A stretch of 58,531 bases of DNA from Candidatus Omnitrophota bacterium (GCA_043814965.1 JBDRJN010000002.1:105984-164514); one strand, 5' to 3'; positions 56,601 through 58,531 are shown, numbered from the stretch's first letter. Translations and numbers: made by a program. The notes: generated by a model not told the origin, from the sequence alone.

Positions 56601-58531
56601 ACCCGAATTGATTAATAATAATGCCATCGGCAAAGGCCTGACAGGTGAGGTTACTGTAAGCCAGAATGAAGAAGATGAGACTGTAACTTTCAGCGATAAA
56701 TTTGGAACAACTATAACCTTAAACACTTACGAAACGCTAGCCCAAGACGTTATTCAGAATAATCTTGATATTGACTTAACTAATGTAAAACTTACAGAAT
56801 CTGAAAGAGGGCATGTTGATCAGATCCTTGCTTCATCAAAGAACGTCAAAAACATCGTAAAGATGCAGGATGATAAAGGTATAAGAGGATATTTAGATAC
56901 AAAAACTGGTACATTGTATCTCTCGGAGATATTCTTCAACCAGGATGGGGCAATAGACCAAATAGCTATTTTCCACGAACTCGGGGAGGGCGCTTTAGTA
57001 TCTACTCCGGATAATATCAATACCCATACATATTTAAGAGGGGCAGGTAAAAATTTAAGAAAAGCTTTGGCCTTTCAGGTAAGATGGGGACATATTAAAA
57101 ATGAAGCATCTATAGAAGAAGCTATAGGTACATTAAAAACCTACATGGAAAAACAATTTAGCCTATTTCCTGTTAGCCTATCTCCTATGGAGCCGGAAGA
57201 GGAAAAATTAATCAGATATAATTATGCTAATGGATCGAGGGGTAATGAGCTGGCTTATGGCCTGCAGGATAAAGTATTTGGCGAACGCGCCAATTTTGAA
57301 TTTACAGAGGAAATAAGAAGATATTATGATCCTGATTTTCTGAAAGGGTTAGACATAGAAGGCGTCAAAGAATATATAAAAAATAAGGGTGTTGATTTAA
57401 TAGATAACAGCAATGGCATTACGTTACCTGTCCTTAAAAATATAGCTTTTGTATTAGGTCTTGTGCCGAAAGAACATCTGCCGAACAAGATTACTTTAAA
57501 GGAACAATATGACCCTGCCGGAGGCAAAGGATATATAACTTATCTATCCATGCTCGGCATAACAAAGAATATCGTATGTGAAGGCAACGCATATGGGGAT
57601 ACTGCATTTACTACTGTGCATGAAATAGGCCATATTGCAGCATCCACCAGGAAGTACATGGATTTTTATGAGATCTCCTGGGGTAATGCTGTATCTTTGC
57701 CTTTAGATAATAGCCAGTTTTTAAATTCTTATGCTGCTCAGAATAAGAATGAAGATTTTGCCGAGGCCTATGTTTACTATGTCATGAAAGGAAACGAATT
57801 CAGGGCAATGGCCAGTAGCTCAGATATCGTGCAGCAAAAATATGCCTATATGAAAGAATATGTATTCAATGGAGTTGAATATGGCGGTGAGGTTACAACT
57901 GTAGAAATTCAGGATCAAACACAACTTGCCACAGATGAAGAAGTAGAAGCTTTTTGTAAACAATATCCTGGTATGAAGCAAAATTTTGGTACAACATTTA
58001 TTAAATCTAATTATTATAACTTAGTAGAATTAGGCGAATCCTCAGGAGAAAACGCAAGCTTCTTGTTCGAAGATGGCTTACCTGCTCTAAAAAATTCTTT
58101 TGGCATAGGCTGGATAGATAAAAATTGGGCTACTTTAGTCGAATTAGGCGAATCCTCAGGAGAAAACTCATGGCACTTATTCCAATATGGCTTACTTACT
58201 TTAAAAGACATTATTACAGAGACTAATCTAAGATCGATCGGCAATGACTTAGCAGAATTAGGCGAATCCTCAGGAAAAAACGTAAGCTTCTTCTTCCAAT
58301 ATAGCTTACCTGCTCTAAAAAATTCTTTTGGCATAGGCTGGATAGATAAAAATTGGGCTACTTTAGTCGAATTAGGCAAATCCTCAGGAAAAAACGCAAG
58401 GTACTTGTTCGAAGATGGCTTACCTGTTCTAAAAGACATTATTACAGAGACTAATCTAAGATCGATCGGCAATGACTTAGCAGAATTAGGCAAATCCTCA
58501 GGAGAAAACGCAAGGCTCTTATTCCAATATG
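47539..58531 (+). CDS. giant multidomain protein, 3' end beyond the window (more than 3,664 aa); absent from the supplied ORF track
   Basis: I read the frame codon by codon from ATG 47539 to the window end and met no stop (10,993 nt). The upstream in-frame stop is at 47476..47478. Motif codons at 48505, 49120, 50605, 51064, 53152, 54826, 56047, 57619 and 58027 all fall in the same frame. Every other track ORF after 47216 is a short minus-strand shadow. Confidence 0.9.
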   Translation, partial: MESCKRGPNRIFIKIIALILVHSFFLTSTCYPLPSVSELFKYKRPVYSFNNRNHRVNISSFNDMPYIYNPDIKDNINDLRAIVSFCKSKFKEDFNELVRKGEKEGWLNKDLLSEMDVYGFTDNFVAIEVALGLLVGLEKGITPDEENIRKMFKKKFRKAIRDGESINIKNIGEGWYVSYGSTTLFVKAGAISRVDSIPSKDIISSFSIASNETRTRPDQLVVSARPSQAGQEIDLSGIIQRTGQNAFKDILIKALSPYLNYSEDYDERFFTEAIKKLTSYRSFSKLYSGIGDQGGQLIDIALPGLMREKIKNDNIVLTVKSIGVGGEGHALYETANKIIDYLKKNDLYSSAEQGKIKIRLIGYDINLANLSEVSGKIDRQFEGLDPVWRNCIEKEFIYADLTDENAYKVLFEEKADLLFCRSTWVASTSRWTKDRAENIRDLLESNVNDLGVSYISGLGGAGYAYLDRGRIIAPKYTKIDKLEDSTFINEFEFKGEAIVEKEVEIKSPQKQAGVSFVDYIKTNNYTSIIDIGTGKNAGFLYKLRTSGLSGVELYGIAPGMDTETIETAKNINIVLNDLSYEKLGKLNKKFDVITINAPDYQYDIDNFLNILKSCLSPNGIIILRADDFKRDISEKKNVTENLFKNTIKLHHSDLKIVDVNLDMKELTTDFPLRDPIVIKLALSLIDQAYDTAMEKGNLEEALNLAVKALSSEEDINIKTASELLGGLMDGLQGEKRDISESLLEIVKTYGGDNVRRKKEVERYLQKQEDIKKTLKPIRDMLGDVKFLKIYIALRSMEHAGTVYDIKGLLGTGIRNSVETSRVGKKLNAEIMKGLMAIMAEADRIVKANSDLNNEEAIPIDLNKELEEGIEEKWLNSLESILKRVKDLYAQCEELEKKCSPNSIELESIQDVGKPINEIIEILEERLAWIQGEGDLKKELLDLNAVISNIVAKIKQGFKNPELEVSLDLSTIPVTEANKRMIECLISNILTNNDQLSKTMDITHIGIRTRLSDDGKNIILQVSDNGLGFPEEGLEQSSKKAFFTQRKGGTGLGLTENELYAREHNGTIQIGRGILDFMTKDPANNGTTFTITLPIEGKQQPAQTPQPVPEEINQQNVDNDKSTQAQKTILLVDDKESHLISYKYELEQSGYKVVTAISAKNALDISKTQNFDMVVTDLNLGGPDGLSLASDLKSEGFNGPILVQTPADVGHLNKNLAKRKDQAIENGNIVDFIEKPASIFTGIQEASSLSAIIERYTKADAEREIMQPDITLAAADEANKRITQSDVHNAIEENLPEDLKDFQNMTSEEQKKIKEKYRDSDGQIVIPIEELLLNTGLLGHIGLGQFYGEPVIYIDAQFKGRDRRDIKKHEKFEIFKWENGRKQLGLDHDQMRKWIVQNSNTDGNGKAQLLASQWHNQAPSVNHIYNRLAKQPQYQKSISSVPKSESGYIEDTYTTGSVYQDNHESQGKNVSAKEEDIKRYCKKYPAMEKMFKQAFIEKNIDILAKAESREFSVGDASDLFGDRYDNSLPDLISQGYTIDFIDKHLSDIIDIVINSETNGIEEMKNFSYLIDHFAESWISSHWDGIVKLIRNGNNYVGNRLARLIGEYGLTTFTRSWLDDNWDAIVAIGTDIEDELVFLKGACGIPWLNANLPILASGNASEIKAIKDKIINGKAGVTLSDTKQSGVLSIIDDIVNKRKIAPIEAGQTREQKTINDVVNIVRSLRPAIPKNGSISAMQYEGYIKALTKDLGIGYALKREGAIGVIKNLYREIKTGERARPDLLLWEEYLFRPFFSQQPRVKYKDFNRNLEVIMPGKTVFITPFLSAIAIMIGSGSVFGPLIGPLVALPITFMYMLTAIKGLATSFTNENSSMRHELNHAYVSCIMKKLSQEGLLADLKDGDKKLGPDDGFSNLPVNYPITNENLEQIENHVVRQLYDLPTPITTPDVVLAAGIQKRPDSQGFTGEVYKKLIDHIPSGYFDYNEKGLGVLLKSLGRTAEPTESAAANRVYKSMLNNIEKGISKAEELDDKTVLNQLNKKYKKFLNSEGLEKIEDITRNARSREGFYELLNTSLTSMSTSLELDPEELTQSGKAEEYYRNIQENAYRFRVLSRAYDILSLKGPFELTTDSGKIYYTLDETTDKEEMLGIVENLSDPEGELDDHGFRSGWRGDIKYTKNAAMVIAKSSDGKSIGVALYHKDDFMFMQDRAKKGDYTSSVYMVDFGYVLKDFRKNGLVSNDLKTKIYERALLDSGIGARSDSRIMLIKPANKDMYDGWKKNNYTVETFYSRDLSPEDQWQQSYRVIYRGVGESNLTQAKNRVVISGTKRERPSVATFANLSMGELTILSSEKNEDRANFTKSIVNWLNNGKPKHFSSRVWYASVAGAIGENYIVRLGSVDNPLALAHVTKRTGILSGFGKKDFYEISLVEVSEEFRGQGILGRIVDKVVNEIAKGELVVAYPDNDDARHAFEKIPGGFPVTWQESPYRDEEGNLWADVECFAFQNQGLAGDITVTQIPANFSMQPKNTDHSFSKDGSVDNTKFTVNGKTYTIDSTLDPKDIGVQIGEDIPIITQKGVNITFTIRGPTNKQAVVEVLTPQLLANAIARSKKMYPEGNPANQIITIVLADQYDYIAGDDVQNGIIIFNASVIEDMINNGENNAFIDEFLTAVLEEEDSHECGAPRDMETEMFLDGRGADLTMQNLNDKKLSLKGYINFVSRYASDAKNNNYLAQLKNDSDITLDLTLEEITRMRQIHSDHQIRVYDKLMDGLEINLGGLEADLYMSGSRNIRQYNLSLLRPTQGYLYQTKLDIQSIKTKIRNKYGLFMTPVVILDFGKDGKFIADGHHRYQEALATGETSIEAYTISFDWNDYDIWPQKMKDFYDDCKLRAESVENNGFNVMPNSTTWDFLFYNMMYHIPVIIDTLISDVHLLDEYSAEKFLDAAYHALSGKDSLWIEYDLARAIAELKLTDRKEEIVISKESFDRAVTELNLEESNGTITLKSGVIFKRGEIETPSVNANSTIQGAEEPELINNNAIGKGLTGEVTVSQNEEDETVTFSDKFGTTITLNTYETLAQDVIQNNLDIDLTNVKLTESERGHVDQILASSKNVKNIVKMQDDKGIRGYLDTKTGTLYLSEIFFNQDGAIDQIAIFHELGEGALVSTPDNINTHTYLRGAGKNLRKALAFQVRWGHIKNEASIEEAIGTLKTYMEKQFSLFPVSLSPMEPEEEKLIRYNYANGSRGNELAYGLQDKVFGERANFEFTEEIRRYYDPDFLKGLDIEGVKEYIKNKGVDLIDNSNGITLPVLKNIAFVLGLVPKEHLPNKITLKEQYDPAGGKGYITYLSMLGITKNIVCEGNAYGDTAFTTVHEIGHIAASTRKYMDFYEISWGNAVSLPLDNSQFLNSYAAQNKNEDFAEAYVYYVMKGNEFRAMASSSDIVQQKYAYMKEYVFNGVEYGGEVTTVEIQDQTQLATDEEVEAFCKQYPGMKQNFGTTFIKSNYYNLVELGESSGENASFLFEDGLPALKNSFGIGWIDKNWATLVELGESSGENSWHLFQYGLLTLKDIITETNLRSIGNDLAELGESSGKNVSFFFQYSLPALKNSFGIGWIDKNWATLVELGKSSGKNARYLFEDGLPVLKDIITETNLRSIGNDLAELGKSSGENARLLFQY
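48340..48860 (+). other. giant ORF: degenerate CheR-like methyltransferase module (approximate bounds)
   Basis: LTVKSIGVGGEGHALYETA, IRLIGYDINLANL and ADLLFCRSTW parallel the CheR motifs IWSAGCSTGEEPYS, I.ATDI and FDLIFCRNVLIYF. Confidence 0.45.
49080..49420 (+). other. giant ORF: class I SAM-dependent methyltransferase module (approximate bounds)
   Basis: Motif I IIDIGTGKNAG (49120..), then ELYGIAPG, FDVITINAPDY and LSPNGIIIL. Confidence 0.6.
50359..50826 (+). other. giant ORF: histidine-kinase-type ATPase (HATPase_c) module
   Basis: N box ECLISNILTNN, G1 box SDNGLGF (50605..), F/G2 boxes FFTQRKGGTGLGL (50677..), and GTTFTITLP. Confidence 0.8.
50914..51300 (+). other. giant ORF: response-regulator receiver (REC) module
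   Basis: KTILLVDDKES, MVVTDLNL (Asp codon at 51064), PILVQT and FIEKP. Confidence 0.8.
52981..53125 (+). other. giant ORF: internal two-helix TM hairpin
   Basis: TVFITPFLSAIAIMIGSGSVFGPLIGPLVALPITFMYMLTAIKGL. Confidence 0.6.
53152..53166 (+). other. giant ORF: HExxH motif (HELNH) 9 codons after the TM hairpin
   Basis: Codons cat gaa ctt aac cat read in frame. Confidence 0.4.
53990..54420 (+). other. giant ORF: weak GNAT-like module 1 (approximate bounds)
   Basis: VYMVDFGYVLKDFRKNGLVSNDLKTKIYERAL resembles beta4-alpha3 of GNATs, but the R/QxxGxG/A motif is imperfect. Confidence 0.3.
54646..54960 (+). other. giant ORF: GNAT acetyltransferase-like module 2
   Basis: ISLVEVSEEFRGQGILGRIVDKVVNEIAKG carries the canonical RxxGxG motif A (54826..54840), followed by ARHAFEKIPGGF. 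Confidence 0.6.
55897..56130 (+). other. giant ORF: ParB/sulfiredoxin-fold module
   Basis: LLRPTQ..VVILDFGKDGKFIADGHHRYQEAL, with the DGHHR codons at 56047..56061. Confidence 0.65.
57619..57771 (+). other. giant ORF: zincin motif pair HEIGH ... EDFAEAY (anthrax-LF/M34-like arrangement)
   Basis: HEIGH at 57619..57633. The Glu of FAEAY is at 57763, 44 codons after the second His. Confidence 0.55.
58027..58531 (+). repeat. in-frame tandem repeats of 114 nt (38 aa), at least 4.4 units, two alternating subtypes (228-nt super-repeat), cut by the window end
   Basis: Unit starts gaattaggc at 58027, 58141, 58255, 58369 and 58483. The 3' 66 nt of units 1 and 3 are identical, as are the 3' 57 nt of units 2 and 4. 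Confidence 0.9.

What the first reader, a model, noticed from the sequence alone, without database searches (positions are those of the whole stretch)
56974..57850. Anthrax-lethal-factor-like zincin signature, preceded by a degenerate copy
HEIGH (57619) is followed 44 residues after its second His by EDFAEAY. Anthrax lethal factor has HEFGH and its third zinc ligand in EFFAEAF about 45 residues later, and related M34/Pro-Pro endopeptidases are similar. About 215 residues upstream lies FHELGEGAL (56974), an HExxE variant that may be an inactivated duplicate. LF-type proteases are toxin or effector domains.
Basis: partly seen in the sequence, partly recalled or inferred. Interest (0 to 1): 0.62.

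Follow-up and report, generated by a model that had tools for sequence, protein, structure and literature searches.

The report
Zinc-protease module in giant bacterial protein
The motif marks a real, apparently active zinc-protease domain, a distant cousin of anthrax lethal factor, built into a giant multi-enzyme protein; the supposed "degenerate copy" upstream is a separate, conserved domain of unknown function.

Summary
HEIGH (57619) and EDFAEAY (57751) lie in a ~185-residue domain (residues ~3281-3467) of an open-ended protein of more than 3,671 aa.

This domain is a genuine gluzincin. In 65 aligned homologues H3368, E3369, H3372, Y3405, E3412 and E3416 are invariant. An AlphaFold model (pLDDT 82) has zincin topology, and its best PDB matches are anthrax lethal factor and Pro-Pro endopeptidases, with weak scores. 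A profile of the family aligns to lethal factor 686-741 with HExxH and S-Y-x6-E-x-F-A-E in register (hhalign 80%, E 1.4e-5).

By sequence the nearest curated family is TIGR04549 / Peptidase_Mx (E 1.3e-7), not M34. No curated cut-off is reached. It belongs to an uncurated family, mostly ~270-aa leader-bearing proteins of Peregrinibacteria and Gracilibacteria, and sporadic inside giant proteins of the window's own phylum.

The zinc-ligand equivalent is E3412 (+40 from H3372), not the Glu of FAEAY (+44).

The upstream HELGE is not a decayed copy. It is an invariant motif of an independent domain that recurs one to three times in other giant proteins without the zincin.

There is no evidence for a toxin role. 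New member of a known kind, of modest interest.

The parts
47518..58530 (+). Open-ended giant ORF (>3,671 aa from GTG 47518; ATG 47539 gives 3,664 aa). It runs off the contig end. It carries an N-terminal hydrophobic leader, methyltransferase, HATPase_c plus receiver, a TM hairpin (residues 1816-1867), GNAT, domain A, the zincin domain B, and 38-aa repeats.
56788..57360 (+). Domain A (residues ~3091-3281): a conserved domain of unknown function that holds the HELGE motif. It is not a detectable copy of the zincin.
56974..57048 (+). Invariant core of domain A: H3153-E3154-x-x-E3157, then H3170 (57025-57027) and R3174-G-x-G3177 (57037-57048).
57358..57921 (+). Domain B (residues ~3281-3467): gluzincin metallopeptidase module. 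It has an N-terminal alpha/beta subdomain, the HExxH helix and the Glu helix.
57619..57633 (+). HEIGH: zinc ligands H3368 and H3372, and general base E3369 (all invariant).
57730..57732 (+). Y3405: invariant Tyr seven residues before the ligand Glu. It corresponds to LF Y728 and PPEP-1 Y178.
57751..57771 (+). EDFAEAY: E3412 (inferred third zinc ligand, equivalent to LF E735) and E3416 (equivalent to LF E739). Both are invariant.
58019..58531 (+). In-frame 114/228-nt tandem repeats (38-aa units) in which the contig, and so the gene model, breaks off. Context only.

Best explanation
Residues ~3281-3467 of the giant protein form a catalytically competent zinc metallopeptidase module. It is a gluzincin of the lethal-factor / Pro-Pro-endopeptidase / Peptidase_Mx lineage.

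Inferred mechanism:
- H3368, H3372 and E3412 hold the zinc.
- E3369 activates the water.
- Y3405 stabilises the tetrahedral intermediate.
- E3416 is a second-shell residue on the same helix.

The module belongs to an uncurated family. Its usual form is a ~270-aa protein with an N-terminal export-type leader in Peregrinibacteria and Gracilibacteria. In the window's own phylum (inferred to be Omnitrophota) it has been shuffled sporadically into very long multi-enzyme proteins.

Its most likely job is to cut protein or peptide substrates outside the cytoplasm. The substrate could be surface proteins of a partner or prey cell, or the giant chain itself. That last step is inference only.

The HELGE motif 215 residues upstream belongs to a different, independently conserved domain (domain A). 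That domain has its own invariant H-E-x-x-E...H...RGxG...E...GLQD set and an unknown function.
For: - Motifs and coordinates.
- A search of 1.84 billion representative proteins split the region into two unrelated hit sets. Query positions 10-170 (domain A) hit other giant proteins; positions 260-360 (domain B) hit the C-termini of 250-330-aa proteins. There were 489 hits at E<=1e-3.
- Invariant H, E, H, Y, E, F, E in 65 sequences.
- AlphaFold2 with that alignment gave pLDDT 81.7 and pTM 0.80. The model has a beta-sheet, an HExxH helix (90-106) and a Glu helix (141-154).
- The top Foldseek PDB hits are anthrax LF (probability 0.95-0.99, TMq 0.39-0.46), PPEP-1/Zmp1, and PPEP-3 (TMq 0.5).
- Pfam hits across family members: Peptidase_Mx 59/65, Peptidase_Mx1 52/65, ATLF 31/65.
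- TIGR04549 matches the window's domain at E 1.3e-7, and 63/65 members.
- hhalign of the family profile against LF 686-776: 80% probability, E 1.4e-5, motifs in register. BLASTP pairwise: E 0.005.
- 88 of 127 small homologues have an N-terminal hydrophobic leader.
- Named homologous loci are overwhelmingly Peribacteria, Peregrinibacteria or Gracilibacteria.
- 13 of 301 genomes of the window's phylum carry the domain, almost all within frames of 3,000-44,856 aa.
- Domain A is independent.
Against: - No curated family threshold is reached: Peptidase_Mx1 19 of 25.6 bits, ATLF 15.6 of 27.4, TIGR04549 31 of 75.
- No Foldseek hit has E<=1e-3, and TM-scores are only 0.4-0.5.
- There is no experimental data for this family, or for Peptidase_Mx, in the searched literature.
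- The model coordinates could not be inspected, so the geometry of the three ligands was not measured.
- The topology of the module (outside or inside the cell) rests on a simple hydropathy count: one leader plus one hairpin. The same chain carries ATP-, SAM- and acetyl-CoA-type domains, which would be odd outside a cell.
- The gene is cut at the contig end, so its C-terminal context is unknown.
Confidence: 0.75

Rival explanations
1. One reading: an anthrax-LF-type toxin or effector cassette. An inactivated duplicate domain (HELGE) precedes the active protease, as LF domain I precedes domain IV. The module acts inside a target cell.
For: LF is the top fold hit, and the active-site motifs align in register. 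The host lineage is thought to be predatory or episymbiotic. hhalign places HExxE of domain A on HExxH of domain B, with a preceding RG(F/L) strand also aligned.
Against: The A-versus-B similarity is not significant: probability 1.7%, score 20.3 reached by 1 of 30 column shuffles. Domain A keeps its own invariant residues, so it is not decayed. In the representative proteins A and B occur apart, and A occurs up to three times per protein without B. In the one other same-frame case found, B lies upstream of A. ATLF is below its Pfam threshold. Stand-alone relatives sit among housekeeping genes, with no immunity or secretion partners.
Confidence: 0.08
2. The module is the giant protein's own processing protease. 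It cuts the polyprotein into separate working pieces.
For: The literature leaves open whether Omnitrophota giant proteins are cleaved, and proposes C39 and S8 domains for that role. In the window's phylum this zincin is found almost only inside very long frames. No C39 or S8 domain was detected in the 3,671 residues available.
Against: Only 13 of 301 genomes of the phylum have it, so it cannot be a general processing device. Its commonest form is a small stand-alone exported protein in another phylum. No cleavage data exist.
Confidence: 0.2
3. It is a zinc hydrolase acting on a non-protein amide bond, for example peptidoglycan stem peptides or glycopeptides, rather than a protein endopeptidase.
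For: NCBI names the closest family by sequence (TIGR04549) only 'metallohydrolase', and that family is tied to substrate import. An M23 peptidase gene lies nearby in 16 of 80 stand-alone loci. Cell-wall degradation is the role favoured for these giant proteins.
Against: The shared Tyr/Glu motif and the best fold matches belong to true endopeptidases, LF and PPEP. The M23 neighbour is present in only a minority of loci and may reflect lineage synteny.
Confidence: 0.12
4. Domain A (HExxE...H) is itself a very diverged zincin-like metalloenzyme. On this reading the window carries two tandem metal-hydrolase modules of common origin, both active.
For: The H, E, (E) and H are invariant at HExxE-x12-H, and one homologue has HELRH. 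The best hhalign alignment to the zincin profile puts HE on HE. The two domains share a genome more often than chance would give: 4 genomes observed against about 1 expected.
Against: hhalign probability is 1.7%, with P about 0.03. There is no Pfam or PDB sequence hit to any peptidase. No usable structure model exists: the single-sequence model had pLDDT 35.
Confidence: 0.2

Closest known systems
Anthrax lethal factor catalytic domain and Pro-Pro endopeptidases PPEP-1/Zmp1 and PPEP-3 (MEROPS M34; Pfam ATLF PF07737)
   Same: Both have HExxH followed by S-Y-x6-E-x-F-A-E-A-[FY]. The Tyr-to-Glu and Glu-to-Glu spacings are identical. The His-to-Glu distance is 40 here, 39 in PPEP-1 and 45 in LF. 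These are the best fold matches. hhalign to LF 686-741 gives 80%.
   Different: The window's domain is below the ATLF gathering score (15.6 against 27.4 bits). TM-scores are only 0.4-0.5. It has an extra conserved 'FYxISW' segment and a C-terminal 'KYxFhKxxVFxGxEY' helix. It is embedded in a giant multi-enzyme protein rather than a secreted toxin or a small secreted protease. There is no PA-binding or other LF accessory domain.
Substrate import-associated zinc metallohydrolase lipoproteins (NCBIfam TIGR04549; Pfam Peptidase_Mx PF15887 and Peptidase_Mx1 PF15890; PDB 9urd, 4l7a)
   Same: This is the nearest curated family by sequence: E 1.3e-7 for the window's domain, and 63/65, 59/65 and 52/65 family members match. 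It has the same F-V-[ST]-x-Y-A...E-D-F-x-E helix.
   Different: The score is far below the family cut-off (31 against 75 bits). There is no lipoprotein signal at the module and no SusC/SusD-type neighbours. The reference family is itself functionally uncharacterised in the literature searched.
Uncurated stand-alone family of ~270-aa leader-bearing zincins of Peregrinibacteria, Peribacteria and Gracilibacteria
   Same: The window's module is a true member. It shares 23-31% identity over the domain, all eleven invariant columns, and significant E-values down to 1e-15.
   Different: The window's copy is an internal module with no leader of its own. In the tree it groups with two unnamed metagenome proteins (P0005, P0009; SH-aLRT 84), outside the 73-row clade of stand-alone copies (SH-aLRT 94). 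Those two relatives carry a transmembrane hairpin inside the catalytic domain, which the window's copy lacks.
Long multi-enzyme ('Archaeovorin'-type) proteins of Omnitrophota (West-Roberts et al. 2023, bioRxiv 10.1101/2023.11.21.568195)
   Same: It is a very long, leader-bearing chain that mixes methyltransferase, GNAT, kinase-type and peptidase modules with helical repeats. The same genome has a 21,140-aa open frame, and phylum-mates reach 44,856 aa.
   Different: The peptidases reported for those proteins are C39 and S8. No zincin, LF-like or Peptidase_Mx module is mentioned in either paper searched. The phylum assignment is inferred, not shown by a named record.

Membership tests
Gluzincins (clan MA(E)) | HExxH on one helix plus a Glu ligand on a later helix | tested here: met
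   HEIGH 3368-3372 lies on model helix 90-106, and E3412 on helix 141-154. All are invariant in 65 sequences.
MEROPS M34 / Pfam ATLF (lethal factor, PPEPs) | Score above Pfam's gathering threshold for PF07737 | tested here: not met
   15.6 bits, E 0.013, against a cut-off of 27.4. 31 of 65 family members match at E<=0.01, the best at 5.4e-6.
MEROPS M34 / Pfam ATLF (lethal factor, PPEPs) | Active-site Tyr seven residues before the ligand Glu, within E-x-F-A-E (LF Y728/E735/E739; PPEP-1 Y178/E185) | tested here: met
   Y3405/E3412/E3416 are invariant. They are in register with LF in hhalign (80%, E 1.4e-5) and with PPEP-1 in hmmsearch.
MEROPS M34 / Pfam ATLF (lethal factor, PPEPs) | Same fold over the whole catalytic domain | tested here: inconclusive
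   LF and the PPEPs are the top Foldseek hits over 203-227 columns. However, E is 0.05-1, TMq is 0.39-0.50 and rmsd is 7-9 Å.
LF-type two-domain arrangement (degenerate copy plus active copy) | The upstream domain is a homologue of the catalytic domain that has lost its motif | tested here: not met
   hhalign A2 against A1 gives 1.7%, a score reached by 1 of 30 shuffles. The motif residues of domain A are invariant, not decayed. The two domains occur independently.
NCBIfam TIGR04549 / Pfam Peptidase_Mx, Peptidase_Mx1 | Score above the curated cut-offs | tested here: not met
   TIGR04549 31.1 against 75 bits (E 1.3e-7). Mx1 19 against 25.6 bits. Mx is not reported for the window's copy. A few stand-alone relatives pass Mx (36.8 against 27).
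NCBIfam TIGR04549 / Pfam Peptidase_Mx, Peptidase_Mx1 | Lipoprotein encoded next to TonB-dependent / SusD-type import genes | tested here: not met
   It is an internal module of a giant ORF. The upstream genes are BatA-D, ribonucleotide reductase and dCTP deaminase.
Omnitrophota long or giant multi-enzyme proteins | Very long chain, leader and TM segments, a mosaic of enzyme modules, and an Omnitrophota host | tested here: inconclusive
   The architecture is met. Giant frames occur in the same genome and phylum. No named record was obtained for the phylum. The gene is truncated at 3,671 aa.

The most novel reading that the evidence does not exclude
Domain A (window 56788-57360) is a new kind of metal-dependent hydrolase confined to long proteins of this phylum. 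Its motif is HExxE-x12-H-x3-RGxG...E...GLQD. It may be a zincin derivative in which the second His and the Glu ligand have swapped places. In this protein it would work in tandem with the LF/PPEP-like zincin as a two-blade proteolytic cassette, cutting either the giant chain or a partner cell's surface proteins.
Probability: 0.15. Interest if true: 0.6.

Novelty: new member of a known kind. Interest (0 to 1): 0.33.

Why it matters
It adds a zinc endopeptidase of the lethal-factor / Pro-Pro-endopeptidase type to the modules found in very long proteins of this (inferred Omnitrophota) lineage. The published proposals for how such chains might be cut, or how they attack partner cells, name only C39 and S8 peptidases.

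It also defines an uncurated zincin family with hundreds of sequence clusters. That family is common in Peregrinibacteria and Gracilibacteria and links the uncharacterised Peptidase_Mx lipoproteins to M34 through a shared Y-x6-E-x-F-x-E signature. One biochemical characterisation would therefore annotate many genomes.

The more unusual by-product is domain A, a conserved, repeated HExxE...H domain with no known relative.

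Tried and rejected
- Single-sequence AlphaFold of residues 3101-3466 failed (pLDDT 35).
- phmmer of the motif region against PDB found nothing relevant.
- The word-indexed homologue search found nothing for the isolated zincin domain, for the region within the whole protein (only itself), or for the domain A alignment.
- Naming the organism failed. The window's own records are withheld. Contigs carrying the closest relatives P0005 and P0009 are short, unnamed metagenome pieces. P0007 is on GCA_020057115.1, but no name could be retrieved.
- Linking the cut 3' end to another contig found no contig with the repeat. The 21,140-aa frame that opens contig C6 shows no similarity to it.
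- Gene neighbourhoods of 80 stand-alone homologues show only lineage synteny: L27, endonuclease III, a tRNA methyltransferase, and M23 in 16 loci. They give no functional operon.
- Recent transfer from Peregrinibacteria or Gracilibacteria was considered and is not supported. The window's copy falls outside the clade of stand-alone copies. The deep branches are long and unresolved.
- The BFVD fold search gave only weak hits to phage minor capsid proteins (E>=0.04).
- No paper on TIGR04549 or Peptidase_Mx function was found.

Full report
**Observation**

The frame starting at GTG 47518 (ATG 47539) stays open for 3,671 codons to the last base of the window. That base is also the end of contig C2 of a 1.65-Mb, 34-contig genome.

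- HEIGH is at 57619-57633 (H3368, E3369, H3372).
- EDFAEAY is at 57751-57771 (E3412 to Y3418).
- FHELGEGAL starts at 56971, with HELGE at 56974.
- From the protein's composition, 0.045 chance HExxH motifs are expected.

The first Glu (E3412) is at +40.

**Two domains, not one**

I searched residues 3101-3466 with phmmer against 1.84 billion representative proteins. The hits fell into two sets that do not overlap.

- Query positions 10-170, which contain HELGE, hit other very long proteins of up to 7,815 aa.
- Query positions 260-360, which contain HEIGH to EDFAEAY, hit the C-terminal part of many 250-330-aa proteins.
- In total there were 489 proteins at E<=1e-3.

I call these regions domain A (residues ~3091-3281) and domain B (~3281-3467). 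The boundaries come from profile searches.

**Domain B is a genuine gluzincin**

I aligned the window's domain with 64 homologues. The invariant residues are H3368, E3369, H3372, Y3405, E3412, F3414, E3416, F3428, K3441, Y3442 and F3450.

AlphaFold2 with this alignment gave pLDDT 81.7 and pTM 0.80. The model has a small beta-sheet, the HExxH helix and a later helix carrying E3412 and E3416. This is the zincin layout.

A Foldseek search of the PDB put anthrax lethal factor first (probability 0.95-0.99, TMq 0.39-0.46). Pro-Pro endopeptidases PPEP-1/Zmp1 followed, then PPEP-3 (TMq about 0.5). No hit reached E<=1e-3.

I confirmed the lethal-factor numbering against PDB 1j7n: H686, E687, H690, Y728, E735, E739.

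- The family profile aligns to LF 686-741 at 80% probability (E 1.4e-5), with HExxH and S-Y-x6-E-x-F-A-E in register.
- The pairwise BLASTP E-value is 0.005.
- The hmmsearch alignment to PPEP-1, combined with the mutant names in the PDB titles (E143A, Y178F), gives the same Tyr-x6-Glu spacing and a His-to-Glu distance of 39.

That LF E735 is the third zinc ligand and Y728 a catalytic residue is established knowledge from the LF crystal structures, not something tested here. By homology, E3412 is the ligand and Y3405 the catalytic Tyr.

**Family placement**

The window's copy alone scores as follows.

| Model | Bits | E-value | Cut-off (bits) |
|---|---|---|---|
| Peptidase_Mx1 | 19 | 1e-3 | 25.6 |
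| ATLF | 15.6 | 0.013 | 27.4 |
| TIGR04549 (substrate import-associated zinc metallohydrolase lipoprotein) | 31.1 | 1.3e-7 | 75 |

Across the 65 aligned proteins, Peptidase_Mx matches 59, Mx1 52, ATLF 31 and TIGR04549 63. The best PDB sequence match of the profile is 9urd, a protein of that lipoprotein family (E 0.003).

Homology to the Mx/TIGR04549 group and to M34 is therefore supported. Membership of any curated family is not. This is an uncurated family within the same corner of clan MA.

**Who has it**

The named loci are overwhelmingly Peribacteria, Peregrinibacteria and Gracilibacteria (Altimarinota), with a few from other phyla and archaea.

- 88 of 127 small homologues have an N-terminal hydrophobic leader.
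- Their neighbours are housekeeping genes: L27, endonuclease III, a tRNA methyltransferase, and an M23 peptidase in 16 of 80 loci. There is no conserved partner.

In the window's own phylum, 13 of 301 genomes carry the domain, and none of the sampled same-genus or same-family genomes do. It almost always lies within frames of 3,000 to 44,856 aa.

In a tree the window's copy groups with two unnamed metagenome proteins, P0005 and P0009 (SH-aLRT 84). It falls outside the 73-row clade of stand-alone copies (SH-aLRT 94). The deep branches are long and unresolved.

P0005 and P0009, and three giant-protein copies from the phylum, have a two-helix hydrophobic hairpin inserted between the 'FYxISW' segment and the Tyr/Glu helix. 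The window's copy lacks it.

**Domain A**

Seventeen copies were aligned, at 26-35% identity. They keep H3153, E3154, H3170, R3174, G3175, G3177, E3228, L3231, G3248 and Q3250 invariant, and E3157 nearly so. One copy reads HELRH.

- No Pfam family and no PDB sequence matches.
- The domain occurs one to three times in other long proteins that lack domain B.
- It is present in 22 of 301 genomes of the phylum, always in long frames.
- No short stand-alone form was found.

Profile-profile comparison with domain B gave 1.7% probability and a score of 20.3. Reversed profiles gave 13.5-14.3, and 1 of 30 column shuffles reached 20.3. The best alignment does place HE on HE.

Domain A is thus a selected, probably functional domain, not a decayed copy. 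A very remote common origin cannot be excluded.

In one other genome (G045) a domain-B-like module lies about 350 residues upstream of a domain A in the same frame. That is the opposite order to the window.

**Context and host**

Other parts of the chain match Methyltransf_31, HATPase_c plus Response_reg, and GNAT. There is a hydrophobic N-terminal segment (residues 18-40) and one hairpin (1816-1867). The chain ends in 38-aa tandem repeats at the contig break. Upstream genes are BatA-D, an intein-bearing class II ribonucleotide reductase and dCTP deaminase.

The same genome has a 21,140-aa open frame. Frames of that size are described almost only in Omnitrophota, and earlier notes of this scan say the same. 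I could not obtain a named record, so the phylum is an inference.

The two papers on these proteins mention C39 and S8 peptidases but no zincin.

**Mechanism and role**

- Shown: the complete, conserved catalytic set and a confident zincin-type model.
- Inferred by homology: zinc is bound by H3368, H3372 and E3412. E3369 is the general base. Y3405 stabilises the intermediate.
- Inferred from leaders on the stand-alone homologues and from the hydropathy count: the module works outside the cytoplasm.
- Not resolved: the substrate. It could be a partner or prey cell's surface proteins, the giant chain itself, or cell-wall peptides.

There is no evidence for a toxin or injected-effector role.

**Verdict**

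The 'LF-like zincin' reading is right at the level of fold and active site. It is wrong about family membership, about which Glu is the ligand, and about the degenerate copy. This is a new member of a known kind, of modest interest. Domain A is the more unusual item.

Noticed in passing
P0005 (residues ~300-355), P0009 (~185-245); L086, L088, L091: The window's closest zincin relatives, and three giant-protein copies in the phylum, carry a two-helix hydrophobic hairpin inserted in the middle of the catalytic domain, between the 'FYxISW' segment and the Tyr/Glu helix. This would pin the active site to a membrane. The window's copy and the stand-alone Peregrinibacteria/Gracilibacteria copies lack it.
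   Followed up: partly
window 53152-53166 (residue 1879): A second HExxH (HELNH) follows shortly after the internal TM hairpin (residues 1816-1867). No family match was found for this region.
   Followed up: no
G045:C34:19269-21026 (L093, L098): A domain-B-like zincin module and a domain A lie in one 1,045-aa frame in the order B then A, about 350 residues apart. This is the reverse of the window's A-then-B order.
   Followed up: no
window 41849-46660: The class II ribonucleotide reductase gene (1,603 aa) is interrupted by intein sequence with LAGLIDADG homing-endonuclease domains, and ends in a TSCPD domain.
   Followed up: no
genome contig C6, from base 1, + strand: A 21,140-aa open frame starts at the contig edge. 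It shows no similarity to the repeat array at the cut end of the window's gene, so no link between the two was found.
   Followed up: partly
P0006 (263 aa, metagenome representative): An aldo/keto-reductase-like N-terminus is joined to a piece 54% identical to the start of domain A. This is probably a chimeric or truncated gene call, but it is the closest domain A sequence found outside the window.
   Followed up: no
window 58019-58531: 38-aa units (228-nt super-repeat, 91% matches) run to the contig end. The assembly probably broke here, so the true gene length is unknown.
   Followed up: partly
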